Positions 1-64,000 of a stretch of 64,000 bases of DNA are shown one piece after another; positions within the stretch are counted from its first letter, which is position 1; every line of letters starts with the position of its first letter. The DNA is taken from positions 24,285 to 88,284 of the IMG/VR virus record IMGVR_UViG_3300030098_002339. One strand, given 5' to 3'. A model generated the notes under the pieces. It was not told the origin of the DNA, made no database searches, and saw only the letters and a program-made list of their open reading frames with translations. A program made the translations under genes and the position numbers. Origin of the DNA: a virus.

Positions 1-38
1 AAAAAGAACAAAATTAAAATAGAAAAGATTAATAAGAA

Positions 39-1466
39 ATGAGATGGTTAATACTATTTACATTATTAACCTTCAATGTTGCAGCTGAAGAAATTACAAC
101 TGGCAACTTATTACCCAATGCAGGAGATTCTGCATCATCTGTACAAAGTGTAGATACTAACGTACCTAATGTAGCATCTAGCTGCAATGATTTTACTATT
201 AATAATAGTCATTGTTTTAGTACTGAAATAGAAGTTACTGGTACAGGTACAGTTAAAAAGTCTGGATCTTTGGTGGGTATTACAACAAATTCTGATACAA
301 CTACTCAAGAAAAATTAGATAATGGTATTACTCTAAATAGTACTACTATTATTCAAAACTGTGAGTGGGCTAATTCCTCTTATGCTTGTGGCAATAGAGG
401 ATCTGGCAGAGATACATTTAAAACTACAGTTAAAATTTTAGATGTTGATGGCAACACTCTTGCTTCTGTAGATCAAATAAGAAATACAGACGCAGGATAC
501 TATGCCAATGCACATAAATATACTGATCAAGTTATTTATAACAATGCAGGTTCCAATCAGTTTGACTGGACTTGGACTGGGATAGATGAACAATCTAATC
601 CTGGAAATCTTGGTGGACCTAATTTATTAGGAGCTTCTCTTACTATGACTTATGAGAATGTAGTACTAGAAGTAGCAACTTTAACTGCTCTTGAAGAAGT
701 TAACGAAGCTGTATCCAATACTGAAATAGAACAATCTGTATCTGAAGTAGTTATAGAAGAAACTAAAACATTAGCTACACAAGTATCTAATATTCAAAAA
801 GCTCCTATAACTAAAACTGCGAAAGTAGTACAAGTACAACAAGCGGTTAAAAAATTTGAAGCTAAGACAGGAGCTAAAGTTGTTAAAGCTAGTACAACTA
901 GCACAACAACTAATACAGCACCAGCTGCTGCTCCTACTAAAGTAGCACAAGCTCCTAAAAAGGAGAAGAAAGCGACAACAATTGCTAAACAAATTATATC
1001 ATCAACTGCTAAAAAGGAGACAATTAATGAAAAAAAAGAAAAACAAGAAGAAAAAAAATCAGAAGTTAAAGAAGAAAAACAAGAAGAAAAACAAGAAAAA
1101 AAGAAGATAGTATCTAAAACAACTTCATCTTCTAAGTCTAAAGTATCTACAATAGATGCTGCAATGGCTAAAGTAGATGAGGTTGTTAAAGACATAGCTA
1201 AAAATTTAGAGGTTAAAAACCTTGTTAAATTAGAAGCTATGAAAGGAGATATTTCTCTTGCTCTTTACACTAATACTGAATTTTATAAAAGCAGAGATAT
1301 TTATTTAAACAATAATATGTTTGATAATAGAGAAATCTATAACAATATCAATTTAGTACAATATATAGAAAATGATCCCGTTGCTCAAAAAGAGAAGATC
1401 CTAAAAGATCTACGATTAAGAGAACGGGAATTGTTATTTAAACTGGAGGCATTAAAAAATGGGTAA
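39..1466 (+). CDS. Secreted/membrane-anchored protein with beta-rich N-domain and Lys/Glu/Thr-rich linker
   Basis: Signal-peptide-like N-terminus MRWLILFTLLTFNVAA; low-complexity central region. Confidence 0.75.
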   Translation: MRWLILFTLLTFNVAAEEITTGNLLPNAGDSASSVQSVDTNVPNVASSCNDFTINNSHCFSTEIEVTGTGTVKKSGSLVGITTNSDTTTQEKLDNGITLNSTTIIQNCEWANSSYACGNRGSGRDTFKTTVKILDVDGNTLASVDQIRNTDAGYYANAHKYTDQVIYNNAGSNQFDWTWTGIDEQSNPGNLGGPNLLGASLTMTYENVVLEVATLTALEEVNEAVSNTEIEQSVSEVVIEETKTLATQVSNIQKAPITKTAKVVQVQQAVKKFEAKTGAKVVKASTTSTTTNTAPAAAPTKVAQAPKKEKKATTIAKQIISSTAKKETINEKKEKQEEKKSEVKEEKQEEKQEKKKIVSKTTSSSKSKVSTIDAAMAKVDEVVKDIAKNLEVKNLVKLEAMKGDISLALYTNTEFYKSRDIYLNNNMFDNREIYNNINLVQYIENDPVAQKEKILKDLRLRERELLFKLEALKNG

Positions 1467-1731
1467 ACTTAAAGATCAACTGGCAGGAATAGCAGCTCTA
1501 GTAGCAGCTATCGTTGCTATAGGCGGTGGATTTATTAAATATGGTGAGATTACTACTAAGTTAGATAACTTATCTAATCAATCACCAGAACAAGCTGAAG
1601 AAGTAGCTGAAAACTCAGGCAACATTATTGATAATCAACAATCAATTAAAGTTTTACAAACTGAAATGGAACTGTTAAAAGTTCGAATGAAAGAATTACA
1701 ACAAGAATCTAAAAATCCACTTGGTGGATAA
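1459..1731 (+). CDS. TM + coiled-coil protein (spanin-like topology)
   Basis: N-terminal hydrophobic helix then coiled coil; GGAGG SD. Confidence 0.65.
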   Translation: MGKLKDQLAGIAALVAAIVAIGGGFIKYGEITTKLDNLSNQSPEQAEEVAENSGNIIDNQQSIKVLQTEMELLKVRMKELQQESKNPLGG

Positions 1732-1850
1732 TGAAAAAGATTAAAGAATCTATTATAGAAATATTTGTTCTTATTTTATACTTCTCATTTTGTTTTCTAA
1801 TATTGATTTTTATTGGAATCTTATGGTTAGTAGATAAACTAATTAAATAA
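1731..1850 (+). CDS. Small membrane protein, 39 aa (not in ORF track)
   Basis: TAATG coupling; MKKIKESIIEIFVLILYFSFCFLILIFIGILWLVDKLIK. Confidence 0.55.
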   Translation: MKKIKESIIEIFVLILYFSFCFLILIFIGILWLVDKLIK

Positions 1851-2526
1851 TTATTTTAGACTTCTCTTTAGGTTCGTCTTTAGGAGCACCAAATACATTA
1901 AAACTAAATGATCTACGTTCTCCTTTTGTTCTAAAAGGATAAACCATGTGGTACATCCACCATGGAAATATATAATAATCACCAACTTTAGGTCTAATTC
2001 TAACTGTATTTGTAGAAAATAAATGAACTTGTCCAAATTGCATTTCTATTCCACCAGCAGTAGGATAATGATCTTCATCTTCTTTCTTCCACTCTTCCTC
2101 TATACCTTCGGGTAAAGATAGATAACCCACACAAGACATGTGGCAATTAGTATGATAATGCAATGGATTAAAATCACCTGCAAAAGATCTAACATACCAA
2201 CCTGATTTAAATATTACCTTTTGAAGTTCTGCAGCATTATCAGGATGTGCTTCAATATAAGCAGTCATAAGTTTTTGAAAGTATGGAGCCCATTTTTCAA
2301 ATACTTCAGGTGTAATAATTAATTCTTGTTTGACATTACCAACTAAATCATCAGAGAAATCATGAATTTTACTTTTCTCTTTATCAGCAATAATGTTATC
2401 ACAATCTTTATTAAAATCATCTATAAGTTCTTGTGGTAATTTACAATGACCTATTGATGGACCAAATGGTCTATATATTTTAAGTTGTTTATTGTCCTTA
2501 TTTAATTTACTAAAGTGCGTCCCCAT
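1843..2526 (-). CDS. Putative 2OG-Fe(II) oxygenase
   Basis: FNPLHYH, distal H in YHMVYPF, ERRSFSFN; homologue at 45237. Confidence 0.8.
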   Translation of the reverse strand: MGTHFSKLNKDNKQLKIYRPFGPSIGHCKLPQELIDDFNKDCDNIIADKEKSKIHDFSDDLVGNVKQELIITPEVFEKWAPYFQKLMTAYIEAHPDNAAELQKVIFKSGWYVRSFAGDFNPLHYHTNCHMSCVGYLSLPEGIEEEWKKEDEDHYPTAGGIEMQFGQVHLFSTNTVRIRPKVGDYYIFPWWMYHMVYPFRTKGERRSFSFNVFGAPKDEPKEKSKIII

Positions 2527-2758
2527 AATCCCTTTCCATTATCATTTCTAAATAGTGTATAGCTTTTTGTATATCTTTTTGTTTTCCCTTAACCGAATGC
2601 CTACAAATATACTTAATAGCATTCCCTTCTGCAAAGGGTAATTTATTTTCATTAATAAATTCAGCAGGTTCTATCTTAAAAGATTTATAATGATTTCCAT
2701 CTACTTGCTTATTAAGTGAATGATAGGTAACCCCTTTAAACATATCTTTATCTGTCAT
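2510..2758 (-). CDS. DUF3310-family protein
   Basis: QVDGNHY...EGNAIKYICR...KG..DIQKAIHYLE. Confidence 0.8.
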   Translation of the reverse strand: MTDKDMFKGVTYHSLNKQVDGNHYKSFKIEPAEFINENKLPFAEGNAIKYICRHSVKGKQKDIQKAIHYLEMIMERDYGDAL

Positions 2759-2760
2759 AT

Positions 2761-3114
2761 TTAAAATACCAATTTATATCTTTGTGCTTCTCTATTAGGT
2801 CTAGGTACATATTTCTTTTTATTAAGAATAGCCTGTTGTTCATAAGTTAATGAATACTTATCTTCTTTTAACAAAATTTCAACTTTATTTCTAGCTCTAT
2901 ATTCTTCATATCCAGCATAATGAAATACTAAACGAAAGTCTTTAGAATCACTTTTTAACCAATCTATAGCACTCATTTTAGCATATATTCTTTCTTTTCT
3001 ATTACCTAAATATTCAGCATCTAAAAGGGCTTGAACAATTACAGCAAACCACAATTTATTTTCCGCTGATGTCTCTTCCTTTGGTAACAATGGTACTGTC
3101 TGTAGAGTTTTCAT
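2761..3114 (-). CDS. Conserved phage hypothetical protein
   Basis: LW.AVI.QA..DA motif; homologue at 46160. Confidence 0.75.
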   Translation of the reverse strand: MKTLQTVPLLPKEETSAENKLWFAVIVQALLDAEYLGNRKERIYAKMSAIDWLKSDSKDFRLVFHYAGYEEYRARNKVEILLKEDKYSLTYEQQAILNKKKYVPRPNREAQRYKLVF

Positions 3115-3289
3115 CAGATTTAGTTACTTCATAAGTAGTTCTTCTATGTAACATTTGATCTCTATTCCAAACAAAATTATTTAAGTCTAAAGATCTAAAC
3201 GTTTTAAGTGCTTCTTCATCATTAACTGCAGATAAATTAATTTCAGTATATTGAGGATCAAAAACCCAAATTTTAAATTTATAAATCAT
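3056..3289 (-). CDS. Conserved phage hypothetical protein
   Basis: Homologue at 46461. Confidence 0.75.
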   Translation of the reverse strand: MIYKFKIWVFDPQYTEINLSAVNDEEALKTFRSLDLNNFVWNRDQMLHRRTTYEVTKSDENSTDSTIVTKGRDISGK

Positions 3290-3612
3290 ATATTATGTTT
3301 ACGTCTACTTGCTTCTAAAGTTCTAAAAAGATCTATTACCATACCTTCTTTATCTCTTTTATTCTCAAGAGTATTTGCTTTAACTTCCGCATCATATATC
3401 TCTTGAACAGCTTTCTGATAATCATCTGATGCATAATATGCCTGTTCTTTGGCAGATATGCTCTTAAGATTACTTTCACCTGTGATAAAGAGAGCTTTCC
3501 TTCTCTTAAGAAGTCTATCCAGGTATTTAACGTTTGCACTTGCTTCCGCACTCTGTTCGTCTGTTTGAGCAAGGTAGGCTAATGCCTTTTCCAATCTGTC
3601 TTCTGTTATCAT
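3286..3612 (-). CDS. Helical protein, UvsY-like recombination-mediator candidate
   Basis: Coiled coil with SAKEQAYYASDDY; homologue at 46688; function inferred. Confidence 0.6.
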   Translation of the reverse strand: MITEDRLEKALAYLAQTDEQSAEASANVKYLDRLLKRRKALFITGESNLKSISAKEQAYYASDDYQKAVQEIYDAEVKANTLENKRDKEGMVIDLFRTLEASRRKHNI

Positions 3613-3728
3613 ATTTTATTTCTCCTGTTCTTTTGAAATGAATATACGCTTTACGAACTTCTTTAGTTTTCTGCCAAGTCTCAAAATGGCATATTTCCAA
3701 GAAGAGTTTGAAAAGTTTGTAATCCATG

Positions 3729-3929
3729 TCATGGAACTAACTTTCCATCTCCTGTCTTACAATAACTTGCCCATACCTGATGACCATTATAATACACTCC
3801 GTCATCAGAACTTTTAGGACTTAACATTTCTACAAATTTATCGTTGCAAGTTTGAGTAGATAATAAAGTTACTGGTACTTTTGCTACTTCTCCGTTTGTT
3901 AAATGAAGTATCATTAATATTGTTTTCAT
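3729..3929 (-). CDS. Small exported hypothetical protein (2 Cys)
   Basis: SD-like AGGA; positional analogue at 47011. Confidence 0.6.
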   Translation of the reverse strand: MKTILMILHLTNGEVAKVPVTLLSTQTCNDKFVEMLSPKSSDDGVYYNGHQVWASYCKTGDGKLVP

Positions 3930-4052
3930 AATATATTCCTATATAATTGCTGATTTCCTACCACAGACTTGGCAGGGAATTTCACCCCGCCTAGTCATCC
4001 AATTGTCCTCATTTTTTTTATAGAAAGGGAGGAAACCATGAATTGGATTCTA

Positions 4053-4511
4053 TTAAAACGGAGCCTCGTCTCCGTCATATTGAGCATCTAATATCATTCT
4101 TACATATTTATCAATCTGATCAAAGTTTACTTCTTTGCCTGATTGTAAAGATGCTGATAATAAATTACTCATAGTTAATCTATATTTCTCTTTCCATTGT
4201 GATTGCTTATCTACAGGTTTTGATGCTGCAGGTGCTACACTTGGAATAGGTACAGAAGTCGCAACCTGTCCATCTAGCATTTCTACTGATTGAGCAGTTT
4301 GATACCACTTACCATTTTTAGATTGTCTTGGAGGTGCAGCAGTAATCTTAAGTCTAGATCCTTTAGACCAGCCTTCAGCTCCTACAGCTTCTCCATAAAT
4401 AGTCATATCAGTTCCATCATCTTTGGTAACGTAAATACTATATTTACCATTACCTTCTTTAGATGCGAATGCTTTTTTATGACTACATTCAAATGTTTCT
4501 ACATTTTGCAT
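4053..4511 (-). CDS. ssDNA-binding protein-like (OB fold, acidic tail)
   Basis: Acidic-aromatic C-terminus DGDEAPF; next to exonuclease; start re-called at MQNVETF after AGGAG. Confidence 0.65.
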   Translation of the reverse strand: MQNVETFECSHKKAFASKEGNGKYSIYVTKDDGTDMTIYGEAVGAEGWSKGSRLKITAAPPRQSKNGKWYQTAQSVEMLDGQVATSVPIPSVAPAASKPVDKQSQWKEKYRLTMSNLLSASLQSGKEVNFDQIDKYVRMILDAQYDGDEAPF

Positions 4512-4575
4512 TTTATTTATTCTCCTATTTATATTTTTAACAATTGATCCAAATCGTTGCATGTTGATTTATACC

Positions 4576-5367
4576 TCATTTCCATGCTTCCATCCAGACC
4601 TTTCTTGCGAATTGCTCAGCACCTGGAGTATATCTCCATCTCCAGTTGTCGAATGTCAAAGGGAACATTCGCACAACGTCTTCTTTGGATCTAGCAATAG
4701 TCAATATATGTTCTATTACTTTGAATGCTTCTATCATTTGTTCAAGATATCCCACTCGATCACCTAGATCTGTAGTGTAGTTATCCCAAGGACTAGCATA
4801 TAACAATAATGCATCCTTTTTAAACAACTCACGATAGAGAAATTGTTGTCTTAAATGTTCAGGTTTAGGGTGATAATTATGATTAATTTTACCCTTCCTA
4901 CCAGCTTTTCTATCAGCAGCTGTAGGAGCATATCTCCATACTTTAGCAGTAGCTTTAGTATCTACAATATAATCTTTAAATTCAAAGTCTAATTTAGCAA
5001 TTATAGGTATTTCAAGACCTGGATACTTACCTTTCCATTCTTTTTGATAGCTTACAATATTACCATATTGTTTCAGTTCTTTTACGAATGCATTAGCTAT
5101 CTGACCAGACCACTCATACTCATCTTCATGAGATTCACCTTGATGGTCTTTTATGTATTTTTCTTTTGAGACATTTATGATATCATCTTCGTTAGTGATT
5201 TGACTCACTAATGCATGATGAGCTGCCTCTTCAGCAGCATGACCCATTTTCATTCTTGCATTCTCTTCAGTTTCGAATCCAAATAATTTATCTATGATCC
5301 ACATTTGCGGACAATCAATAAATGTATTACCTGCGGAAGCTGAATGATGTTCTATTACTTTCAACAT
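4576..5367 (-). CDS. PD-(D/E)XK exonuclease (Cas4/RecB-like)
   Basis: HSAS..N.FIDCP, G.A.E, KLDF...IVDTKAT, Q..LY motifs. Confidence 0.85.
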   Translation of the reverse strand: MLKVIEHHSASAGNTFIDCPQMWIIDKLFGFETEENARMKMGHAAEEAAHHALVSQITNEDDIINVSKEKYIKDHQGESHEDEYEWSGQIANAFVKELKQYGNIVSYQKEWKGKYPGLEIPIIAKLDFEFKDYIVDTKATAKVWRYAPTAADRKAGRKGKINHNYHPKPEHLRQQFLYRELFKKDALLLYASPWDNYTTDLGDRVGYLEQMIEAFKVIEHILTIARSKEDVVRMFPLTFDNWRWRYTPGAEQFARKVWMEAWK

Positions 5368-5382
5368 AATTTACTCCTTTCT

Positions 5383-5682
5383 ATGATTATTAATATTCAA
5401 AAGTACTTAAGTTGTACTTATAACATATCCCTTGATACCCTCAAGGGAAAAAAGATTATAAGATCTAGAGATGAATACAAAATATACAATCTCTCTATCT
5501 TATTATCTTGGCTATTAAACCCTACCAAAAGGTATGGGGTTAAGAGCCTTATTGCACGATTTCATGGTTGTAAACATAAAAATCGAGTCTATAGACTATC
5601 TAAACTATATAAGTCTAATTCACGTTTTAAAAATTTTGTAGACACTAACTTAACAAAATATGAAAAAACTAGAAAAACCTGA
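5383..5682 (+). CDS. HTH protein resembling DnaA C-terminal DNA-binding domain
   Basis: YNISLDTLKGKK...IARFHG..H..V pattern; homologue at 48686; start re-called. Confidence 0.55.
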   Translation: MIINIQKYLSCTYNISLDTLKGKKIIRSRDEYKIYNLSILLSWLLNPTKRYGVKSLIARFHGCKHKNRVYRLSKLYKSNSRFKNFVDTNLTKYEKTRKT

Positions 5683-6145
5683 GCTTGTACAAACAATAAT
5701 AGATAAGAAAAAAGTATGGTTAAACATACGTGAATCTCGTCTATTATATATGTTTCATCGTAGGTTAGTATCCTGGGAAGAATACGAAGCAGGATCTAGG
5801 TATCGTTTCATGTGTGAATTACAAGCAGGAAATTCTGGAAATACTTTAAAAGAAAGATTAGATGGCTGTACAACTGATTTCATTCCACTTCAAATAGGTG
5901 CAGCATTAGCCGTTAAAGAAGTAGATGAAGAAATAGGCGAACACCTTGCCAAAATTATGAAGTTATTTTGTTGGTTTAATTATGGTATAATTGAAATAGC
6001 AGATCGTCTAGAAATATCAGAACGTAAAGCATCTAATTATGTACATGAAGGACTAGCAAGATTATCAGTTTATTATGGGTATAAAAAAGTCAGAAATACA
6101 ATCAAAGGACAAGGAACTAAGGTTAAAAGACAAAAAGTATCTTAA
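5660..6145 (+). CDS. Sigma-70 region 4-like HTH regulator (late activator candidate)
   Basis: YGIIEIADRLEISERKA...EGLARL. Confidence 0.7.
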   Translation: MKKLEKPELVQTIIDKKKVWLNIRESRLLYMFHRRLVSWEEYEAGSRYRFMCELQAGNSGNTLKERLDGCTTDFIPLQIGAALAVKEVDEEIGEHLAKIMKLFCWFNYGIIEIADRLEISERKASNYVHEGLARLSVYYGYKKVRNTIKGQGTKVKRQKVS

Positions 6146-6500
6146 GTGGGTAGCAAGCCAGGCTTGCATACTTTGTCAAGATGTTCCCTGCCAAGCTCAC
6201 CATATAACCTATGCTCAGCATAGAGGCTTTAGCCAAAAAGTAGGTGATCAATGGACTATACCTTTATGTTTTTTACATCATGATCAGCTACATAGATGTG
6301 GCTTATCTGAACGCAATTTCTGGTTAAAAATAGAGATAGACCCACTACATATAGCAGAAACTTTCTATAAACATAACAAAGATATGTGGAAAAACCCTGA
6401 TTTCTTCTATGATGACTCAATGCTTTGGATTATGGTTTATAACAAACTTGTACCTAAGATTAAGAAACACATTGACTTTATCATGCAACCCAAATTATAG
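6075..6500 (+). CDS. DUF968/Ref-like HNH-type Zn nuclease
   Basis: YLKWVASQACILC...AHH...KVGD..TIPLC..HH..LH. Confidence 0.8.
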   Translation: MGIKKSEIQSKDKELRLKDKKYLKWVASQACILCQDVPCQAHHITYAQHRGFSQKVGDQWTIPLCFLHHDQLHRCGLSERNFWLKIEIDPLHIAETFYKHNKDMWKNPDFFYDDSMLWIMVYNKLVPKIKKHIDFIMQPKL

Positions 6501-6534
6501 AATATAGTATCCTCGCCAGAGGTATGAAAAAATT

Positions 6535-6816
6535 ATGGCTAAAATATTTAAATTTCCGTTTAAAAAAGCTAGATATTCTGAGAGCTTTCTTAAGAAAGTA
6601 GATCCTAATAAAATAGGAGACTTTATTTCTAAAGAGCATCCAGATCTTTCTATTAGAGCTGCTGATGCTATGGCATTAGCTGTAATTTATTCTACTTATC
6701 TATCATTGGTATTTGAGGAAGAGGGAAAAAAAGTTCCTGTAGATGTTATGAATAAGTTTGAAGATAACGATTATGCAACATTCATCTGGAACAATGACCC
6801 AAAGACGCTACACTAA
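6535..6816 (+). CDS. Conserved phage hypothetical protein
   Basis: RAADAMALA motif shared with 49839. Confidence 0.75.
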   Translation: MAKIFKFPFKKARYSESFLKKVDPNKIGDFISKEHPDLSIRAADAMALAVIYSTYLSLVFEEEGKKVPVDVMNKFEDNDYATFIWNNDPKTLH

Positions 6817-7075
6817 AAAAAAAAAGAAACCAGTTACTGAGTTTCCTTATAAACCTATTAAAGATAAATTAACCTGGCATGATGCACAATCTGATACTGG
6901 GTGGAAGTCTAAAGATAGCATGGACAGATTAAGACCTGCAATCTCTAAGACTAAAGGATGGATCTATGAGGAAACTGATGAGTATATCAAAACATTTGGA
7001 ACATACTCTATAGATCCTGAAACCAAAGAAATTGAATTTGGGGAAGTACTTTGTATTCCTAAGAATTGGATTTAA
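6794..7075 (+). CDS. Conserved phage hypothetical protein (W.DA...GW family)
   Basis: WHDAQSDTGW...TKGWI...CIP; homologue at 50101. Confidence 0.75.
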   Translation: MTQRRYTKKKKKPVTEFPYKPIKDKLTWHDAQSDTGWKSKDSMDRLRPAISKTKGWIYEETDEYIKTFGTYSIDPETKEIEFGEVLCIPKNWI

Positions 7076-7078
7076 ACG

Positions 7079-7146
7079 CTTGACCCCAGATCCAATTGGG
7101 CGAGATCTCTTTAATGCTGAAGACCCAATTAGATCAGGGCTCAAGT
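7079..7146. terminator. Long imperfect hairpin between convergent genes
   Basis: CTTGACCCCAGATCCAATTGGG ... CCCAATTAGATCAGGGCTCAAG. Confidence 0.55.
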
Positions 7147-7455
7147 TTAAATCTGATTAGAATCTTCTGTTCTATTATTATATTGTTCTTCAGGTTTATG
7201 AACAGGGTCAGCTTCTAACGGATTAGTATAAGTTTCTTCAATTGCTTGACCACCCAATTCTATTATTCTTTTCTTTGTAGCATTAATTTCAGCTTTAACA
7301 TGATCTTTCGCATGTTCTAATACTTGAGTTAACTTTGGAAAATTCGTAGGATATATTCCATAAATAGTTAAATCATTAATTGCTGTCGCTACTCTTTGAA
7401 GTCCTCTTTGACGCTTTTCTAGTCTGAGTACTTCGCTGTCTGGAGTTATTTCCAT
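7147..7455 (-). CDS. Conserved early hypothetical protein
   Basis: Near-identical core at 50675. Confidence 0.8.
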   Translation of the reverse strand: MEITPDSEVLRLEKRQRGLQRVATAINDLTIYGIYPTNFPKLTQVLEHAKDHVKAEINATKKRIIELGGQAIEETYTNPLEADPVHKPEEQYNNRTEDSNQI

Positions 7456-7520
7456 CTTCCATCTCCTTTATTTTACGTTTTAGTTTATCTATTTCTAACT
7501 GCTTAGTAGCAACCATTGCT

Positions 7521-7787
7521 CTAAGTGCGTTTTCGTTTCCATTGCTCATTTATTTGTCCTTCCATTATGTGATCTAAATATTCATATCGATCTTTATATT
7601 CTTTTAACCATTCCTGAATTATCAATGAATGCTTATCATATAAAAATCCACATGCTATAGCATTACTTAACACAGAAATAGATTCTTTACAATCAGCTAA
7701 TTCCTCTTTGGTTTTAGCCATTTCTTCAGCTGGATTAATTGTTATCATAATATTATTGCTCCTGTTGCAAATCCAATTGTGAACCAT
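7521..7787 (-). CDS. Early hypothetical protein
   Basis: NAIACGFL shared with 51064; true start probably internal. Confidence 0.7.
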   Translation of the reverse strand: MVHNWICNRSNNIMITINPAEEMAKTKEELADCKESISVLSNAIACGFLYDKHSLIIQEWLKEYKDRYEYLDHIMEGQINEQWKRKRT

Positions 7788-7851
7788 ACAATCTCGGTTC
7801 TATAATGTAATGACCAAATATCAAAATCTCTTTTTAGTTTTTCCCATTTAT

Positions 7852-8127
7852 TCATATTTCACCATTCTTTCTTAGTTTATCAACTGTTTTATTAATGATT
7901 TCTTTCATCTTATCATTTTCTCTTAATAACTGATTATTAAGTACTCTAAGATCACCATTTGTTTGTGCATGAGAATCATTAATGTTCATTAGATCTGATA
8001 TTCTACGATCTTTATCCATCAGTTCTATATTATGATTATCTTGTAAAAGACTTATTTGCTTTTTAAGATATTCTATTTCTTTATGAAGATCCTCAAATTC
8101 TTTTAAATCTTTCAATCCTTCATTCAT
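7852..8127 (-). CDS. Coiled-coil early protein
   Basis: KDRRI.DL.NIN..H...NGDLR shared with 51276. Confidence 0.75.
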   Translation of the reverse strand: MNEGLKDLKEFEDLHKEIEYLKKQISLLQDNHNIELMDKDRRISDLMNINDSHAQTNGDLRVLNNQLLRENDKMKEIINKTVDKLRKNGEI

Positions 8128-8534
8128 GCAGCCTCCTCTTCAACTTTTTGATAGACACATACTTTACCTGCAATAAAATCGCCTGGTAAACATTGTCTTC
8201 CAGTTTTTTCTAACCATTTACTCCATGCTTCAGTTATTTTTATATTAACTGTAGGCATATCTTTAAGTTTAGATTCTTCATCCATAAAAAAATCTACATA
8301 ACCATCTTTTCTATTAGATAGTTCTGGCATATATCCAGTAGACATTTGTATTATATCAGTTCCTATTTTCTTATACATCAATTTAAAATTAGGTTTCTCA
8401 TGATGCCAAGTAGTGAACTGCTTTCCGTCTTCATGAAATGTTACTAATTTCCATTGAGGACTCTTACGCTCTTTATTCATTTGACTCATTGATTTATTTT
8501 TCATTTTTCTCCTTTTTATAAACATCAAATTCAT
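8124..8534 (-). CDS. DUF3846-like protein
   Basis: MDEESKLK...N...GDFIAG. Confidence 0.65.
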   Translation of the reverse strand: MNLMFIKRRKMKNKSMSQMNKERKSPQWKLVTFHEDGKQFTTWHHEKPNFKLMYKKIGTDIIQMSTGYMPELSNRKDGYVDFFMDEESKLKDMPTVNIKITEAWSKWLEKTGRQCLPGDFIAGKVCVYQKVEEEAA

Positions 8535-9107: not shown

Positions 9108-9216
9108 CTAAACCATTCGTTTATATAGTGTCTTCTTTTACCTTGACGTTCTTTCTCTACAACTCTTAAGGCTTTGTCAGTAGCTTTATTTAACACTCTT
9201 AATTGTTCATCGTTTT

Positions 9217-9483: not shown

Positions 9484-9489
9484 GTTTAT

Positions 9490-57440: not shown

Positions 57441-57817
57441 TGAGTGAAGATAAAACACAAGAAAACAAAGTTGAAACTAAAGAAGAAGGTCCTTTAGACA
57501 AACCTAATTATTGGGGAGTCTTAGGAAGCAAAAAACCTTCTAATAAAGGTGGAAAACGTGAAGGAGCTGGAAGACCATTAGGTTCTAAAAGCACAAAACC
57601 TAAATGGAAATCTATGGATGAGATGTCTGTGAAATATCAACATTCCCCTTTAGATTATATGTTATCTGTGTTAAATAATCCTATGAGCTCACCTGAGAGA
57701 AAGATGTATGCTGCTGAAAAATCAGCTCCATATATTCATCCTAGGTTAGCTTCTTCAACAGCAAGAATAGGATCAGATGAACCAATCGAAATCAAAGTCC
57801 AATGGCAAAAAGATTAA
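57440..57817 (+). CDS. terS: Terminase small subunit (unit C)
   Basis: Homologue of 13554. Confidence 0.8.
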   Translation: MSEDKTQENKVETKEEGPLDKPNYWGVLGSKKPSNKGGKREGAGRPLGSKSTKPKWKSMDEMSVKYQHSPLDYMLSVLNNPMSSPERKMYAAEKSAPYIHPRLASSTARIGSDEPIEIKVQWQKD

Positions 57818-59075
57818 GCGAATTGAAATTCCTTATAAGCCAAGACCTTATCAATTAGAAGTACACGATAATAAAAAACGATTTAATGTATTAGTCTGTC
57901 ACAGACGATTCGGTAAATCAGTATTATCCATTAACGAATTAATTAAAACCGCAGCAGCAAAACCGAGAGCTCTGCTGGCTTTCATAGCTCCTACCTATAG
58001 ACAAGGAAAATCTATAGCTTGGGAGTATTTAAAATTTTATACGAAACCTCTAATGTATTTTGGAGGAAGTAGGAACGAGACTGAATTAAGAATAGATTTA
58101 TTTAACGGAAGTCGTATTCAAATATTTGGTGCAGATAATCCAGACAGCATCCGTGGATTAGGATTTGACGGAGTGGTTATGGATGAATATGCAATTATGT
58201 CACCTAGAGTTTGGACAGAGATCGTAAGACCTGCTGTATCAGACAAACTAGGATGGGTTATGTTTATCGGAACACCCATGGGACATAATCAATTCTGGGA
58301 AGTCTATGATTACGCCCAACGAGGTCATAAAGACTGGATGGGTAAAATCTATAGAGCCTCAGAAACCAAGGTGATTCCAGACGAGGAGCTGGCGCAGGCA
58401 CGTTCCATAATGACCGAAGAGCAGTATGACCAAGAGTTCGAATGCTCTTTTACTGCAGCGGTCTCAGGAAGTTATTACGGAAGATTAATAACGAAAGCCG
58501 AAAATTCTAGAAGAATCGGATCCGTGCCTGTGGATAGTAACGTAGGTGTAGAAACGTGGTGGGATTTAGGTATAGGTGACTCAACAGCAATTTGGTTTGC
58601 TCAACGAGTGGGAAAAGAAATACACCTTATAGATTATTATGAAACTTCAGGAGAATCTTTAGCACACTATGCAGATAAACTTGAAGAAAAAGGATATGCT
58701 TATTCTAATCACATAGCTCCACACGATATAATGGCTAGAGAATTAGGAACAGGTAAATCAAGAATGGAAGTTGCTAATGAATTGGGTATTGATTTTGAAG
58801 TAGCTCCTAAGTTAGAAGTAGATCACGGAATTGAATCTGTGAGAAATTTATTACCACATTGTTATTTTGATAGAGAAAAATGTAAACTAGGATTAGATGC
58901 ATTAAGACAATATCGAAAACAATGGGATGATAAAAACCAAGTGTTTAAAAATAAACCTCTACACGATTGGTGTTCTCATGCAGCTGACGCATTTCGATAT
59001 GGCTGTGTATCTGAACCGATTGATATGACGGAGTGGAATAAACCAATTAAAGTAGATACCAAATATATAGTATGA
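57777..59075 (+). CDS. terL: Terminase large subunit (unit C)
   Basis: Same motifs as 13813. Confidence 0.95.
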   Translation: MNQSKSKSNGKKIKRIEIPYKPRPYQLEVHDNKKRFNVLVCHRRFGKSVLSINELIKTAAAKPRALLAFIAPTYRQGKSIAWEYLKFYTKPLMYFGGSRNETELRIDLFNGSRIQIFGADNPDSIRGLGFDGVVMDEYAIMSPRVWTEIVRPAVSDKLGWVMFIGTPMGHNQFWEVYDYAQRGHKDWMGKIYRASETKVIPDEELAQARSIMTEEQYDQEFECSFTAAVSGSYYGRLITKAENSRRIGSVPVDSNVGVETWWDLGIGDSTAIWFAQRVGKEIHLIDYYETSGESLAHYADKLEEKGYAYSNHIAPHDIMARELGTGKSRMEVANELGIDFEVAPKLEVDHGIESVRNLLPHCYFDREKCKLGLDALRQYRKQWDDKNQVFKNKPLHDWCSHAADAFRYGCVSEPIDMTEWNKPIKVDTKYIV

Positions 59076-61222
59076 AATCAGAAAAAGAAATATTAGCAAT
59101 ATTAGGAAAAGAATTACATAACGCTTCTGGATTTATTGGAGGCGAATTAGTTGCTCGAAGGAAAAAATCCTTAGAGTACTACCTAGGAATGCCATTAGGG
59201 AACGAACAAGAAGGTCGTTCTCAAGTGGTATCTAATGATGTATTAGATACAGTTGAAAGCCTCATGCCATCTTTAATGAGAATCTTTACAGCTGGCGATA
59301 ATGTATTTAATTGTGAAGGTGTTGGACCAGAAGACGATGAAATGGCACGTCAATGTTCCGATTACCTTAATTATATTTTTTATAAAGAGAACAATGGATT
59401 TGTAGCTCTTTATTCTGCATTTAAAGATGCATTGATCCAAAAGAATGGAATCTTAAAAGTTTATTGGGATGATTCTCAGAAAACTGAAAGAGAAGAATAT
59501 ACAAGATTAACGGATGATGAATTTAATGATCTCGTTGCAGATCCTCAAGTTAAAGTTAAAAATCATTCAGAATACGAAGAACCAATAACGGATGATCGTG
59601 GTAAAGAAATTGATAAAGTTGCTTTACACGATGTTGTTATTCATAGAACAAGATTGTACGGACAGGTTAAAATTGAACCAGTTCCTCCAGAAGAATTTTT
59701 AATTGAACGTAGATGTAAATCTATTGATGCTTCCCATTTTGTTTGTCATCGAACAACAAAAACAAGAACAGAACTTATTGAAATGGGTTTTCCCAAAGAT
59801 GTCGTAGAAGGATTACCTGCAGGCGATGCAGATTATTTTACGGAAGATAAGTTTGTTAGACATCAAAATATTGACCTACAGCACGGAGCTGCTGATGGAG
59901 ATAAAGGCACAACAGATATTACAGTTCATGAATGTTATATTAACATTGATGTTAATGAAGATGGTAAATCAGAATTAGTTAAAATCATTACAGCAGGTAG
60001 CGGTACTGGTAAAATTCTAGATTTAGAAGAAGTTGATACTATACCATTTATATCAATGACACCCGTTATTATGCCACACAGATTTCATGGCAGATCTGTG
60101 TCGGAATTAGTAGAAGACATCCAACTTATTAAGTCTACTGTTATGAGACAAATGTTAGATAATATGTATCTAACAAACAATAACAGAGTTGCAGTACAAG
60201 ATGGTCAAGTTGCAATGGATGATCTTCTAACTAACCGACCAGGTGGAATCGTAAGAACAAAACAACCTCCTCAAAATGTTATGATGCCTATTCAGGCACA
60301 ACCAATTACGGAACAAGCTAGTGGAATGTTAGCTTATCTAGATTCTGTTAAAGAAACTAGAACAGGGGTTACAAGACAATCCCAGGGGCTAGATGCTGAT
60401 ACCTTAAATAAAACAGCAACTGGACAAAACCAAATTCTGACACAATCACAAATGAGAATGGAGTTAATTGCCAGGATCTTTGCTGAAACAGGTGTTAAGG
60501 ATCTAGCTTTAAAAATATTTGAATTGGTATGCAAGTATCAACAAAAGGAAAAGATAGTAAGAATTAGAGGAAAATACATTCCTATGAGACCTTATGAATG
60601 GAAAGACAGAGTAAATGTTACTGTTCAAGTAGGTTTAGGTACAGGTTCTAAAGAACAACAGCTAATTTTATTAAATGCAATCTTAGAAAGACAAATGCAG
60701 GCAATAAACTTACAACAAAATGTCTATGGACCTATGGTAAACCTTAGAAATGTATACAATAGTTTAAAAAAATTAATAGAAAATGCTGGATTGAACGGAA
60801 TTGAGCCATTTTTCATGGATCCTGACGTTGGTGCAGCACAAATGCCACAACTTCCACCTAAACCACCAACAGAATTTGAAAAAGTGACGTTGGCTCAGGT
60901 TCAAGGTGAAAATCAGCGTGAACAATTGAAAGCTGAAGTAAGATTAAAAGAAGTTGAAGGTAGAATGAGACAACAATTGCTTGATTTTGAGATAAAAATT
61001 AAAGAATTAGAACTTAAATACGGATCTAAAATCGATGAACTTGAATTGAAACGTAGAACTATGTTAGAAGAAGTAGATCTTCAAAAATCTGGAGATTTAA
61101 TGAAAGAAATAGTGAAAGGACAACAACAATTCTTTAATGATGGACAAGCTAGAAACACAGCTGCGAAGGGGAAAGAGAGCCCAGGTGCTGCTAGACGATC
61201 CCCTGCTAAAGCAAGGGTTTAA
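59072..61222 (+). CDS. Portal protein (unit C)
   Basis: Homologue of 15117. Confidence 0.92.
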   Translation: MKSEKEILAILGKELHNASGFIGGELVARRKKSLEYYLGMPLGNEQEGRSQVVSNDVLDTVESLMPSLMRIFTAGDNVFNCEGVGPEDDEMARQCSDYLNYIFYKENNGFVALYSAFKDALIQKNGILKVYWDDSQKTEREEYTRLTDDEFNDLVADPQVKVKNHSEYEEPITDDRGKEIDKVALHDVVIHRTRLYGQVKIEPVPPEEFLIERRCKSIDASHFVCHRTTKTRTELIEMGFPKDVVEGLPAGDADYFTEDKFVRHQNIDLQHGAADGDKGTTDITVHECYINIDVNEDGKSELVKIITAGSGTGKILDLEEVDTIPFISMTPVIMPHRFHGRSVSELVEDIQLIKSTVMRQMLDNMYLTNNNRVAVQDGQVAMDDLLTNRPGGIVRTKQPPQNVMMPIQAQPITEQASGMLAYLDSVKETRTGVTRQSQGLDADTLNKTATGQNQILTQSQMRMELIARIFAETGVKDLALKIFELVCKYQQKEKIVRIRGKYIPMRPYEWKDRVNVTVQVGLGTGSKEQQLILLNAILERQMQAINLQQNVYGPMVNLRNVYNSLKKLIENAGLNGIEPFFMDPDVGAAQMPQLPPKPPTEFEKVTLAQVQGENQREQLKAEVRLKEVEGRMRQQLLDFEIKIKELELKYGSKIDELELKRRTMLEEVDLQKSGDLMKEIVKGQQQFFNDGQARNTAAKGKESPGAARRSPAKARV

Positions 61223-61400
61223 AGATCTCTTAGAAACTTACAAAGACGAAATTTTTAATACGAATTTTGCTGACGATGAAAAACGTAGATCCCTTTGGAT
61301 GGCATATAATATGCTAGACAAAATACGAGGGCATTTACAGACAATCATGGAAAGCGGAAAACTAGCTCAAAAAGATCTTGAGCTTTTAAACAAGAGCTAA
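61137..61400 (+). CDS. Conserved head-region protein (unit C)
   Basis: Homologue of 17185. Confidence 0.75.
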   Translation: MMDKLETQLRRGKRAQVLLDDPLLKQGFKDLLETYKDEIFNTNFADDEKRRSLWMAYNMLDKIRGHLQTIMESGKLAQKDLELLNKS

Positions 61401-61445
61401 CCTTTATAGGAGCTCACTTACGTCAACCAATAGGAGGAACGTTAC

Positions 61446-62441
61446 ATGGCACAAGAACAATCAGTTCAAGGTGCTGCTGAAAAAATATCTGGATTACTGA
61501 ATCCTAAACAGGACAATCAAGTACCAGAGAAGAAAGAAGCAGCTCCCTCAGAGCAACCTGAAAAGATCAAACAGGAACCTTCAAAAGAGAGTCAATCAAA
61601 GTCTGAAGAAACTCCCAAAGAAGTAGCTACTGAAAAAACCGAAATCGAAGAAGAAACGCAAACAGCTACAGAGGAACCCGAACTCCACCGAGTTAAAGTT
61701 AGTGGTCAAGAGTTAGAGGTTACCCTCGATGAGTTGAAAGCAGGTTATTCACGAGACTCGGATTATAGACAAAAAACTCATACTTTAGGCTTAGAGAAAA
61801 AAGATCTTGAAGCTCAAAAGCAGAGTTTGCGTCAATCTTATGATACTCGTTTATCAGAACTAAACGAAATGATTACAACTGCTGACAGTTTTGTCAGACA
61901 ACAACAAGGTAGTAAGGATCTCCAAAAACTTTATGATGAAGATCCCACATCTGCAGCTAAACTGGATTACCAGTTACGACAACAAAATAGGCAGATAGAG
62001 GAAATGAAGTCTAAAGCTCAAGAGGCTTACACAAAACAATACAATGAATACCTTGATATACAGAAACAGTTAGCAGCAGCTAAAATCCCAGAATATAGCG
62101 ATCCCAATAAAGCTGATCAATTCAGAACTAATATGCGTACAACACTACGTGGATATGGTTTTAATGATACAGAAATTGGAAACCTGGCAGATCACCGTTT
62201 TTTAATGGTGATTAAAGATGCAATGAGTTATAAATCTGTTAAAGATAAAAAACCTATTGCCCAGAAGAAGGTAGCAAATGCACCTAAAGTCGTTAAAGCT
62301 GGAGTAGCTAAATCAGGACCAAGTTCAGGTAGAGAGGAAATAAGAAACAAGATCAATCGCTTAAAGAAGACTGGGCATCTTCGTGAAGCTCAAGACGCAA
62401 TAAGAGATATGATCAATCTTAAATCTCAACAAAAAAGGTAA
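61446..62441 (+). CDS. Capsid scaffolding protein (unit C)
   Basis: Homologue of 17497. Confidence 0.88.
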   Translation: MAQEQSVQGAAEKISGLLNPKQDNQVPEKKEAAPSEQPEKIKQEPSKESQSKSEETPKEVATEKTEIEEETQTATEEPELHRVKVSGQELEVTLDELKAGYSRDSDYRQKTHTLGLEKKDLEAQKQSLRQSYDTRLSELNEMITTADSFVRQQQGSKDLQKLYDEDPTSAAKLDYQLRQQNRQIEEMKSKAQEAYTKQYNEYLDIQKQLAAAKIPEYSDPNKADQFRTNMRTTLRGYGFNDTEIGNLADHRFLMVIKDAMSYKSVKDKKPIAQKKVANAPKVVKAGVAKSGPSSGREEIRNKINRLKKTGHLREAQDAIRDMINLKSQQKR

Positions 62442-62447
62442 TAAACA

Positions 62448-63389
62448 ATGGCACAACCAACAAATACGTTTGATACGTATGATTCCATTGGAGAACGTGA
62501 AGATCTGTCAGATGTTATTTATAACATCTCGCCAACTGACACACCATTCCTTAGCTCTGCAGCTAAAACAAAAGCTACAGCAGTTTTACACGAATGGCAA
62601 ACTGACAGTTTGGCATCAGCTTCAACATCCAATGCTGTAATCGAAGGTGACGAAGCAACTTTAGACGCTGTTACTGCAACAACTAGATTATCTAACTCTT
62701 GTCAAATTATGGACAAAACAGTTGTAATCACAGGTACGCAGGAAGTAGTTGATAAAGCTGGAAGAGCTTCTGAACTAGCTTACCAAATCGCTAAAAAGTC
62801 AAAAGAGCTTAAAAGAGACTTGGAAGCACAACTAACAACAAACAACGCTGAAGTAACAGGTAATGCTACAACAGCAAGAGAAATGGGTTCATTAAGAGCA
62901 TGGGTTGCTACTAATGACGTAATGGGAACTTCTGGAACTTCAGGAGCAGCAGGTAATACTGCAGCAACTGATGGAACTCAAAGAGCTTTCACAGAATCTC
63001 TCTTGAAATCTGTAATTAAATCAGTATGGAACGAAGGTGGAAACCCAACTATGATTATGGTTGGACCTTTCAATAAACAAAAATTGTCAGGATTCACTGG
63101 TAACAGTACTAGATTCGATGCAGGTGCTGATGCAACCTTATACACATCAGTAGATGTTTACGCTTCTGACTTCGGTCAACTTCAAGTAGTACCTAACAGA
63201 TTCTCTAGAGATAGAGATGCTTGGGTATTAGACATGGATTATTGGGGAGTAGCTTTCTTAAGAGACTTTTCAATGCATGAATTGTCAAAAACTGGAGACT
63301 CAGAGAAAAGACAACTAATTCTAGAAGCGACTCTAGAATCTAGAAATGAAGCTGCAAGCGGCTGCGTAGCTGACTTAACAACTTCATAA
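62448..63389 (+). CDS. Major capsid protein (unit C)
   Basis: Homologue of 18496, same length. Confidence 0.92.
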   Translation: MAQPTNTFDTYDSIGEREDLSDVIYNISPTDTPFLSSAAKTKATAVLHEWQTDSLASASTSNAVIEGDEATLDAVTATTRLSNSCQIMDKTVVITGTQEVVDKAGRASELAYQIAKKSKELKRDLEAQLTTNNAEVTGNATTAREMGSLRAWVATNDVMGTSGTSGAAGNTAATDGTQRAFTESLLKSVIKSVWNEGGNPTMIMVGPFNKQKLSGFTGNSTRFDAGADATLYTSVDVYASDFGQLQVVPNRFSRDRDAWVLDMDYWGVAFLRDFSMHELSKTGDSEKRQLILEATLESRNEAASGCVADLTTS

Positions 63390-63400
63390 TAATATAACAA

Positions 63401-63486
63401 ATGCGTAGGCGGGTAACCTCAAATTCTACCCGCCTTGCATCCTAATTAACATTGAAGTCTTGAGAGGGGTTAAAGGCGGAACAATG
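63401..63486 (+). ncRNA. Kissing-loop element downstream of MCP (unit C)
   Basis: Covarying homologue of 19449-19531. Confidence 0.65.
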
Positions 63487-63496
63487 AGGAAACAAA

Positions 63497-63844
63497 ATGA
63501 GAACATTAAACGACTACTTTTTACACGCAGCAATCGCAGACATTAGTACAGCATCATCAACATTCGTGCCTGTACCTGATGGAGGCAAAGTAATAAAAAT
63601 TATAACTGCTCTTCAAGGAGCAATTGGTACAGCTAATGGCGGAATTTCTTTTGAAATTGGTGGAACAGCAATAACTGGTGGCGGGATTACAGTAACACAA
63701 TCTGGATCTGCTGCTGGAGATGTTGATACAGCAGAACCAACTGCAGCTAACGAAGTTGCTGAAGATGGAACTATTGAAATGATAACTGACGGAGCTTCTA
63801 GCAACACAGTTAAACTCAACGTAACATTTGTTATAAGAAGATAA
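63497..63844 (+). CDS. Capsid decoration protein candidate (unit C)
   Basis: Two aa differences from 19546. Confidence 0.7.
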   Translation: MRTLNDYFLHAAIADISTASSTFVPVPDGGKVIKIITALQGAIGTANGGISFEIGGTAITGGGITVTQSGSAAGDVDTAEPTAANEVAEDGTIEMITDGASSNTVKLNVTFVIRR

Positions 63845-63891
63845 TTAATTCAGGGGATGGAAACATCCCCTAAACAAAAGGAGAACAAAAT

Positions 63892-64000
63892 ATGAACTAT
63901 GGTTTAAGACATGGGACTGTGCATAAGCTAACTTCTGGAAGTTCATCTTCTGCAAGTTCAGCTTTTTCAGCTAATATAGAATATATAAGAGTTGTAGGCA
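63892..64000 (+). CDS. Small virion protein (unit C), truncated by window
   Basis: Near-identical to start of 19958. Confidence 0.7.
   Translation, partial: MNYGLRHGTVHKLTSGSSSSASSAFSANIEYIRVVG

What the first reader, a model, noticed from the sequence alone, without database searches (positions are those of the whole stretch)
1..64000. Head-to-tail array of different phage genomes (~43.4-44 kb period) with no integrase, host DNA or visible att scar
Seen: the gene order repeats with offsets of 43394 (oxygenase) to ~43950 (TerL, MCP). The copies are not identical: early genes are diverged or replaced, and the segment before the oxygenase differs completely between 1-1850 and 43.9-45.2 kb, so every region seen twice is a different variant. 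All ORFs compared look intact. Established: replicative concatemers are near-identical, and tandem prophages normally show an integrase and att repeats. Inference: this is either a real heterologous concatemer/polylysogenic stack built by homologous recombination between co-infecting relatives (an exonuclease, SSB-like and UvsY-like genes are present), or an assembly chimera that switches strain at near-identical blocks.
Basis: partly seen in the sequence, partly recalled or inferred. Interest (0 to 1): 0.85.

Follow-up and report, generated by a model that had tools for sequence, protein, structure and literature searches.

The report
Two phage genomes mis-joined by assembler
The apparent head-to-tail array is most likely two related 44-kb marine phage genomes that a metagenome assembler threaded into one 88-kb contig, so it is a database artefact and not a biological concatemer.

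Summary
The window is the last 64 kb of a single 88,284-bp IMG/VR virus record. That record is two colinear, diverged (65-86% identical) units plus 175 bp of a third start: A is 44,175 bp and B about 43,934 bp. There is no integrase, resolvase, tRNA or host flank.

The array is most likely not a physical molecule.
- The record's first 77 nt recur exactly at the end of unit A. Its last 85 nt recur exactly 13 nt further on, at the start of unit B. Only 70 of 88,208 positions carry a repeated 77-mer. This is the pattern of a k=77 de Bruijn walk that goes once round A, crosses at a shared node, goes once round B and stops on a node it has already visited.
- An independent metagenome contig (L090) matches "A end + A start" in one 12.8-kb alignment at 99.1%. 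It matches the record's own A-end/B-start join at only 94.9%.
- None of 14 independent contigs crossing this locus reproduces the record's linkage.
- A-specific and B-specific Logan contigs differ about 2- to 6-fold in depth in three of four runs.

CheckV's paper describes the artefact class. This diverged-copy case escapes its k-mer test (multiplicity 1.02). Earlier reports of this scan reached the same verdict on other DNA. Interest is low.

The parts
1..19891 (+). Last 19.9 kb of unit A (contig 24285-44175; unit A = contig 1-44175). Holds an A-only 475-aa ORF, minus-strand early genes and the plus-strand TerL-portal-scaffold-MCP-115aa genes.
   Evidence: L001 matches contig 33452-43082 at 95.5-98.2%. 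L090 matches contig 35434-44175 and continues into contig 1-4029 at 99.1%.
19892..19968 (+). Node x: a 77-nt stretch exactly identical to contig 1-77, the record's first 77 nt. It covers the long-type intergenic spacer, the RBS, the ATG and the first 11 nt of the next gene. This is the k-mer-length closure of unit A and the point where the path leaves A for B.
   Evidence: Exact-match list (1 <-> 44176, 77 nt, cut on the left by the contig start). Three-way alignment.
19944..19968 (+). 25-nt RBS/start-codon block identical in all three copies (contig 53, 44228, 88162). It is also present in 14 independent contigs.
19969..19981 (+). 13-nt link between nodes x and y. It is B-type sequence that differs from the third copy by one base.
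   Evidence: The same long-spacer + B-type-gene combination occurs in L082, L083 and L084.
19982..20066 (+). Node y, first copy: 85 nt inside the first B gene (92-aa ORF at 19958-20236), exactly repeated as the record's last 85 nt.
   Evidence: 44266 <-> 88200, 85 nt, cut on the right by the contig end..
19892..63825 (+). Unit B (contig 44176-88109), one full lap of the gene order. It runs from virion and tail genes through three phrog_27227 repeat proteins, an oxygenase cluster, a 1061-aa protein, phosphoesterase, a lysozyme-like gene, minus-strand early genes, TerL, portal, scaffold and MCP to the 115-aa gene.
   Evidence: L085 matches contig 44069-49262 at 98.6% and L027 matches contig 82940-87680 at 99.6%.
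63826..64000 (+). Start of a third lap: short-type spacer (17 nt shorter), the 25-nt block, then 123 nt of the B-type first gene. It matches B at all but one base and is unlike A. It ends the record on node y (63916-64000).
   Evidence: The same short spacer + B-type gene occurs in L085, L088, L091 and L092.
13813..19893 (+). Unit A packaging and head genes: TerL 13813-15120, portal 15117-17270, scaffold 17497-18489, MCP 18496-19437, 115-aa gene 19546-19893.
   Evidence: PHROGs: terminase large subunit E 4.7e-43, portal 6.3e-170, scaffold 8.5e-51, major head protein 7.8e-106. The 115-aa gene has no PHROG hit.
57777..63844 (+). Unit B copies of the same genes: TerL 57777-59075, portal 59072-61222, scaffold 61446-62441, MCP 62448-63389, 115-aa gene 63497-63844.
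   Evidence: for the ORFs; 85.6% identity to window 13567-20066.
1843..2526 (-). 2OG-Fe(II) oxygenase of unit A. Its unit B copy is at 45237-45917 on the minus strand.
   Evidence: phrog_81 E 1.1e-26 and 8.1e-28. 86.3% nucleotide identity between the copies.

Best explanation
The 88,284-bp record is a two-lap path through a de Bruijn assembly graph, not a molecule. Two co-occurring relatives of one marine tailed-phage lineage, each with a circular-mapping genome, share a few exact stretches. A is 44,175 bp and B about 43,934 bp. The assembler started at a branching 77-mer (node x) in the spacer between the 115-aa gene that follows the MCP gene and the next gene. It walked once round A and returned to x. 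There it took the other outgoing branch, because B-type genomes with the same long spacer also exist. It then walked once round B and stopped on reaching node y, which it had already used.

Shown: the exact 77-nt and 85-nt repeats flush with both record ends; closure of A in an independent contig; and the fact that the mid-junction is an ordinary within-genome adjacency in other assemblies. Inferred: the assembler type and the value k=77.
For: 1. Structure. The record is two colinear units plus 175 bp, with no exact terminal repeat.

2. Ends. Contig 1-77 equals 44176-44252, and contig 88200-88284 equals 44266-44350. Both matches are cut only by the record's ends, and they lie 13 nt apart at the unit boundary. 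Only 70 of 88,208 positions hold a repeated 77-mer, so two random ends would both fall on one with a chance of about 6e-7.

3. The third copy is not A. The record's end re-enters the B-type first gene: 123 nt with one mismatch to B, and strongly diverged from A. A closed A-B circle is therefore excluded, and B is followed by B.

4. Independent closure of A. L090, an independent metagenome contig, aligns as one 12,771-bp HSP at 99.1% to contig 35434-44175 followed by contig 1-4029. The 500-bp windows beside the join are 99.4-100% identical. L090 is only 94.9% identical to the record's own A-end + B-start.

5. Linkage in other contigs. Of 14 independent contigs carrying the 25-nt block (9 IMG/VR, 5 metagenome), none pairs a >=95% A-end with a >=95% B-start. 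Four pair an A-type start (98.5-99.6%) with an upstream end closer to A-end than to B-end: L090, L086, L087 and L094. Two pair B-like ends (91-94%) with B-like starts (92-93%): L088 and L091.

6. Depth. For the pieces listed, A-specific against B-specific contigs read 57.8-75.5 against 22.2-27.9 in X1, 24.5-30.9 against 13.1-18.7 in X3, and 32.1-105.4 against 6.7-8.6 in X12.

7. Expected size. 14 of the 15 listed phage records with the nearest portals are 33-51 kb, so 88 kb is about twice the expected length.

8. Literature. The CheckV paper (PMC8116208, passages seen) reports that assemblers leave k-mer-length repeats at the ends of circular templates. [quoted passage not shown]
Against: - No raw reads of the source sample were available. 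The four laid runs are short Logan contigs, and no listed piece bridges the junction, so the record's A-to-B link was neither confirmed nor refuted read by read.
- The tool warns that contig depths are poor measures of abundance. Only the longest pieces of each run were listed (32 rows shown, 2,617 not shown). In run X9 the A and B depths overlap (33.8-53.2 against 4.6-40.9).
- Independent closure of B is weaker than that of A. L085 is 99.7% identical to the B start but holds only 107 nt upstream. The contigs that span both sides (L088, L091) are only 91-94% identical to B.
- Three other exact A/B matches of 81-86 nt exist. A k=77 graph must have resolved these correctly, so k=77 is a reasoned guess.
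- L086, L087 and L094 carry an upstream allele only 91-92% identical to the record's A end.
Confidence: 0.9

Rival explanations
1. A real heterologous concatemer or tandem pair. Two related phages co-infecting one cell recombined at the shared spacer, or two prophages or episomes sit head to tail, and the assembler reported that molecule faithfully.
For: The junction is seamless and lies in a block shared by both types. A weak exonuclease-like hit (phrog_69, E 2e-4) means some recombination function may be present. Spacer types and flanking gene types assort in all four combinations among independent contigs, so recombination at this spot does happen in nature.
Against: Both record ends are flush with exact 77-nt and 85-nt repeats of the junction. 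The third copy is B-type, so the only heterologous link is a single crossover. L090 shows the A end followed by the A start at 99.1%. None of 14 independent contigs carries the record's linkage. A and B depths are unequal in 3 of 4 runs. There is no integrase, resolvase, tRNA or host flank. Natural recombination at this spot would make a unit-length recombinant genome, not a double-length one.
Confidence: 0.04
2. Blind concatenation after assembly. Two separately assembled circular contigs were pasted end to end by a binning, scaffolding or merging step.
For: Contig 1-44252 looks like a stand-alone circular contig with a 77-nt overlap. Contig 44266-88284 looks like one with an 85-nt overlap. 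The Phables paper (PMC10563150, passages seen) describes bins that combine variant genomes into over-long sequences.
Against: There are no Ns. The 13 nt between x and y complete a natural sequence that also occurs contiguously in L082-L084. Pasting two independently cut circles would not recreate that sequence unless both were cut at the same graph node, and that case is the graph-walk explanation again.
Confidence: 0.04
3. A true 88-kb genome that arose by an ancient duplication of the whole genome, followed by divergence of the two halves.
For: All compared ORF pairs are intact. CheckV rates the record 100% complete.
Against: The record has no closing repeat, and it runs on into a third, B-type copy. 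Independent contigs close A on itself. The nearest portal relatives have 33-51 kb genomes in 14 of 15 listed records. A T=7-type head gene set is not expected to package 88 kb; this last point is my own knowledge and was not tested.
Confidence: 0.01

Closest known systems
Concatenated-genome contigs in IMG/VR and GOV, as described in the CheckV paper (PMC8116208; passages seen)
   Same: This is an IMG/VR virus contig about twice the expected length, with the whole gene order repeated head to tail. It carries k-mer-length exact repeats of the kind that assemblers leave on circular templates. The authors judge such contigs 'probably artifacts of metagenomic assembly'.
   Different: [quoted passage not shown] Here the two laps are different strains or species (65-86% identity). 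Mean k-mer multiplicity is only 1.02 at k=20, so the k-mer test misses it. Only a check of contig length against the expected genome length would flag it.
Variant-genome 'phage components' with bubbles in assembly graphs (Phables paper, PMC10563150; passages seen)
   Same: Co-occurring mosaic phage variants share unitigs. Assemblers or binners can then output sequences that hold more than one variant genome, which draws CheckV's '>1.5x longer than expected' warning.
   Different: That paper discusses variants with >99% ANI and over-long bins. Here a single contig path joins two genomes that are much more diverged.
Replicative phage concatemers
   Same: Head-to-tail order of genome units.
   Different: Replicative concatemers consist of near-identical units. 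These units are 65-86% identical and carry replaced segments.
Tandem prophages (polylysogeny at one att site)
   Same: Two related phage genomes sit side by side.
   Different: There is no integrase or resolvase and no host flank or tRNA. The boundary lies in an ordinary late-gene spacer that independent contigs cross within single genomes.

Membership tests
Assembler-made concatenated-genome contig (CheckV / IMG-VR artefact class) | Contig length is a multiple of the expected genome length, with the whole gene order repeated colinearly | tested here: met
   88,284 = 44,175 + 43,934 + 175 bp, colinear throughout. 14 of the 15 listed records with the nearest portals are 33-51 kb. No closed ~44-kb relative of this exact lineage was recovered; the 80 IMG/VR loci listed come from contigs of at most 23 kb.
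Assembler-made concatenated-genome contig (CheckV / IMG-VR artefact class) | Exact repeats of k-mer length at the contig ends or lap boundaries | tested here: met
   The first 77 nt equal contig 44176-44252, and the last 85 nt equal contig 44266-44350. Repeated 77-mers occupy 70 of 88,208 positions.
Assembler-made concatenated-genome contig (CheckV / IMG-VR artefact class) | Each unit closes on itself in independent data | tested here: met
   A: L090 is 99.1% identical over 12,771 bp across A-end to A-start. B: internal evidence only (123 nt with 1 mismatch), plus B-like contigs L088 and L091 at 91-94%. The feature is therefore firmly met for A and only partly for B.
Assembler-made concatenated-genome contig (CheckV / IMG-VR artefact class) | Average k-mer frequency clearly above 1 (the same genome repeated) | tested here: not met
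   Mean multiplicity is 1.022 at k=20 and 1.009 at k=31. The laps are different variants. This is therefore a diverged-copy version of the artefact, not the identical-copy form that CheckV's k-mer test finds.
Replicative concatemer | Units near-identical | tested here: not met
   Identity is 65-86% where the units can be aligned, and some segments are replaced outright.
Tandem prophages / polylysogeny | Integrase or other site-specific recombinase | tested here: not met
   PF00589 and PF00239 each gave 0 matches at E<=1 in the whole record. The control genomes scored positive in 14 of 14 and 13 of 14. Other recombinase families were not searched.
Tandem prophages / polylysogeny | Host flanks and att repeats at the unit boundaries | tested here: not met
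   The record holds no DNA outside the two units and no tRNA. The boundary repeat is the spacer, RBS and start of a late gene, which single-genome contigs also cross.
Physical heterodimer (A and B covalently 1:1) | Equal abundance of A-specific and B-specific sequence in every sample | tested here: inconclusive
   Listed Logan-contig depths differ 2.1-3.4-fold in X1, 1.3-2.4-fold in X3 and roughly 4-16-fold in X12, and they overlap in X9. The tool warns that contig depth is a poor measure, and only the longest pieces were shown.

The most novel reading that the evidence does not exclude
The record reports a real molecule: a hetero-concatemer (A-B-B...) formed by homologous recombination at the shared late-gene spacer between two co-infecting relatives of an abundant marine phage lineage. 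It would have been captured as replicating or mis-packaged DNA. That would be direct sequence evidence of co-infection and of inter-strain recombination intermediates in the ocean.
Probability: 0.03. Interest if true: 0.6.

Novelty: not a real feature. Interest (0 to 1): 0.07.

Why it matters
The value is in database hygiene, not new biology.
- The record is listed as one linear virus genome of 88 kb with 100% estimated completeness. It holds two genomes.
- Taken at face value it doubles the genome size and gene count. It creates false 'paralogue' pairs and false synteny, and it invites concatemer or polylysogeny stories.
- Because the two laps are diverged, the k-mer-frequency screen for concatenated genomes does not see it: multiplicity is 1.02 at k=20.
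- Cutting at the unit boundary (window 19892 for A/B, window 63826 for the end of B) would probably recover two usable, near-complete genomes of an abundant and hard-to-assemble marine phage lineage. That lineage has 509 IMG/VR relatives, and the 80 listed come from contigs of at most 23 kb.
- The two genomes give a clean pairwise view of which modules are conserved, diverged or replaced.

Tried and rejected
1. Exact terminal repeat of the record: none found. The start and end overlap by 175 bp of homologous but different sequence. A closed 88-kb circle is rejected.

2. megablast of window 13500-23500 against GenBank phages: no match. The lineage has no close cultured relative. The nearest portal is Pelagibacter phage HTVC106P at 51.7%.

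3. Read-level test of the junction. The 24 listed runs (20 hold at least half of the sampled words) are all kept as Logan contigs. Laying X1, X3, X9 and X12 gave only short pieces, and no listed piece bridges window 19892-20066. Absence of a bridge here proves nothing.

5. Independent closure of B at >=98% on both sides: not found among the 14 contigs.

6. Blind pasting of two contigs: rejected because the junction recreates a natural contiguous sequence seen in L082-L084.

7. Strain switching inside the units: no sign of it in the stretches covered by L001, L027, L085 and L090. The rest of each unit was not covered by independent contigs.

8. A lead from an earlier report of this scan, that Kirchberger et al. 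2022 (PMC9239249) describes concatenated microvirus genomes: the passages I saw use 'concatenated' only for alignments. I do not cite it as support.

9. Supplementary files of the papers were not opened. CheckV's lists of flagged IMG/VR contigs might name this record.
Full report
WHAT THE WINDOW IS

The window is bases 24285-88284 of a record that consists of one 88,284-bp contig. It is an IMG/VR virus record classed 'linear', with a CheckV completeness of 100. GC content is 29-41%. The genes are those of a tailed phage. PHROGs finds a terminase large subunit, portal (E 6.3e-170), scaffold, major head protein (E 7.8e-106), virion structural proteins, a tail-fibre-like C-terminus, three phrog_27227 proteins, several 2OG-Fe(II) oxygenases, a metallophosphoesterase and a lysozyme-like protein. 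The nearest cultured relative by portal is Pelagibacter phage HTVC106P at 51.7% identity. IMG/VR holds 509 relatives; the 80 listed come from contigs of at most 23 kb. Twenty public runs labelled marine metagenome or marine plankton metagenome hold at least half of the sampled words of a 10-kb stretch.

CHECK OF THE OBSERVATION

Early genes match at 68-76%. Window 1-1850 has no counterpart in the other unit, even by tblastx. ORF pairs have matching lengths. PF00589 and PF00239 give no match in the whole record, while the controls are positive. No tRNA is present.

Seen on the whole contig, the picture is simpler than 'an array'. Contig 1-44175 (unit A) is colinear with 44176-88109 (unit B), and the last 175 bp begin a third lap. 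There is no DNA outside these units.

THE DECISIVE ANATOMY

An exact-match scan and a three-way alignment of the three copies of the boundary show the following.
- The record's first 77 nt are identical to contig 44176-44252 (window 19892-19968).
- The record's last 85 nt are identical to contig 44266-44350 (window 19982-20066).
- Both matches are cut short only by the record's ends, and they lie 13 nt apart at the A/B boundary.
- The first repeat (x) ends exactly at the base where the A-type and B-type versions of the next gene diverge.
- The second repeat (y) starts right after a single-base difference between the middle copy and the third copy.
- Only 70 of 88,208 positions carry a repeated 77-mer. 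Two unrelated ends would both fall on such a position with a chance of about 6e-7.

This is what a path in a de Bruijn graph with k=77 looks like. It starts on a branching 77-mer, goes round cycle A and meets the same 77-mer. It takes the other exit, goes round cycle B and halts on an edge it has already used. That 77 is a common largest k for short-read SPAdes runs is my recollection and comes from no call. [quoted passage not shown]

The third copy matters. After a spacer 17 nt shorter than that of the other two copies, the record re-enters the B-type gene for 123 nt with one mismatch. The A-type gene is very different there. The record therefore cannot be a closed A-B circle. B is followed by B, and the only A-to-B link in the whole record is one switch inside a 25-nt block that all three copies share.

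INDEPENDENT ASSEMBLIES

That 25-nt block (RBS plus the start of the 92-aa gene at window 19958-20236) occurs in 9 IMG/VR contigs and 5 metagenome contigs. All 14 cross the boundary as an ordinary adjacency: the 115-aa gene, the spacer, then the 92-aa gene. All four combinations of spacer type (long or short) and downstream gene type (A or B) occur, so the record's middle junction is a natural sequence. L082-L084 carry the same long spacer with a B-type gene.

Linkage over the flanking 1 kb was measured.
- L090 pairs a 99.8% A end with a 99.6% A start.
- L086, L087 and L094 pair a 98.5-98.8% A start with an upstream end closer to the A end (91-92%) than to the B end (84.5-86%).
- L088 and L091 pair B-like ends (91-94%) with B-like starts (92-93%).
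- L085 has a 99.7% B start but only 107 nt upstream.
- None of the 14 pairs a >=95% A end with a >=95% B start, which is the record's own linkage.

L090 aligns as a single 12,771-bp HSP at 99.1% to contig 35434-44175 followed by contig 1-4029. Against the record as written it reaches only 94.9%. Unit A therefore closes on itself in an independent assembly.

Coherent stretches of both units also recur elsewhere. L001 matches contig 33452-43082 at 95.5-98.2%. L027 matches contig 82940-87680 at 99.6%. L085 matches contig 44069-49262 at 98.6%.

DEPTH

The four laid runs are Logan contigs. They are short, and none of the listed pieces bridges the junction. Depths of the listed pieces that lie on A-only or B-only sequence are given below.

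Run | A-specific depth | B-specific depth
X1 | 57.8, 75.5 | 22.2-27.9 (6 pieces)
X3 | 24.5, 30.9 | 13.1-18.7 (6 pieces)
X12 | 32.1-105.4 (5 records) | 6.7, 8.6 (2 records)
X9 | 33.8-53.2 | 4.6-40.9 (overlapping A)

The tool warns that such depths are a poor measure, and only 32 of about 2,650 pieces were listed. I count this as soft support for the view that A and B are separate populations whose ratio changes between samples.

RIVALS

- A real hetero-concatemer or tandem pair would need the record's ends to fall by chance on the junction's own exact repeats. It is also contradicted by L090 and lacks any integration machinery or host flank.
- Blind pasting of two circular contigs would not recreate the natural junction sequence.
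- An ancient whole-genome duplication is contradicted by the run-on into a third copy and by closure of A. Genome sizes of portal relatives also speak against it: 14 of the 15 listed records are 33-51 kb.

COMPARISON WITH WHAT IS KNOWN

The CheckV paper reports IMG/VR contigs more than twofold longer than expected. [quoted passage not shown] The Phables paper describes phage assembly-graph components with bubbles, and over-long outputs that combine variant genomes (PMC10563150). The present record belongs to this artefact class, but its two laps are different variants. Its k-mer multiplicity is 1.02 at k=20, so the k-mer screen cannot see it.

Earlier reports of this scan reached the same verdict on other DNA (e1-5866043, e1-6118265, e1-5873526, e1-2910993). 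I did not test those cases. A paper lead from one of them (PMC9239249) was not borne out by the passages I read.

VERDICT

The 'real array' reading is not supported, and the 'assembly chimera' reading is supported with about 0.9 confidence. This is not a real feature and its interest is low. The useful outcome is that the record should be split at window 19892 and trimmed at window 63826. This would probably give two near-complete genomes of about 44.2 and 43.9 kb.

The missing decisive test is mapping the source reads, or long reads, across the three possible boundary models.

Noticed in passing
window 10821-11014 (unit A, early/late divergence region): This 194-nt segment is replaced by the same 7 nt in Logan contigs of all four laid runs (joint 10820->11015). 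The same replacement occurs in the independent IMG/VR contig L001, which jumps from contig 35104 to 35299 with 7 nt between. It is therefore a presence/absence polymorphism, and the record's version seems to be the rarer one. It overlaps a stretch that another first-stage note read as a structured RNA.
   Followed up: partly
window 31519-33978 (unit B); a further oxygenase on the minus strand at 45237-45917 and 1843-2526: Three adjacent late genes hit 2OG-Fe(II) oxygenase PHROGs (phrog_81 and phrog_61). A fourth hits families labelled 'ferrochelatase' (phrog_2954, E 2.3e-50). They sit just downstream of the phrog_27227 repeat proteins. This is an unusual density of oxygenases for a 44-kb phage. 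Function was not examined.
   Followed up: no
window 25132-30059 (unit B) and contig ~5300-9450 (unit A, outside the window): Three consecutive genes (322, 599 and 608 aa) all match phrog_27227 and carry many internal diverged repeats. This is the least conserved part between the two units, at under 70% identity or unalignable. Logan contigs show many alternative joints there. It is a likely hypervariable receptor-binding module.
   Followed up: no
window 39-1466 (unit A only): A 475-aa ORF has no PHROG hit and no counterpart in unit B. In the same slot unit B carries a 123-aa phrog_20984 gene at 44036-44407. This is a replaced cargo slot between the late and early modules.
   Followed up: no
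phage record PP027964.1 (hit H12): Among the 15 listed phage records with the nearest portals, one (Vibrio phage VpP_43, unannotated) is 93,814 bp, while its neighbour vB_VpP_BA6 is 50,520 bp. It may be another over-long record, but it was not examined.
   Followed up: no
window 19892-19943 versus 63826-63877: The spacer after the 115-aa gene exists in two forms, long and 17 nt shorter. Among 14 independent contigs these forms assort freely with A-type and B-type flanking genes. This points to frequent natural recombination at or near this conserved RBS block.
   Followed up: partly
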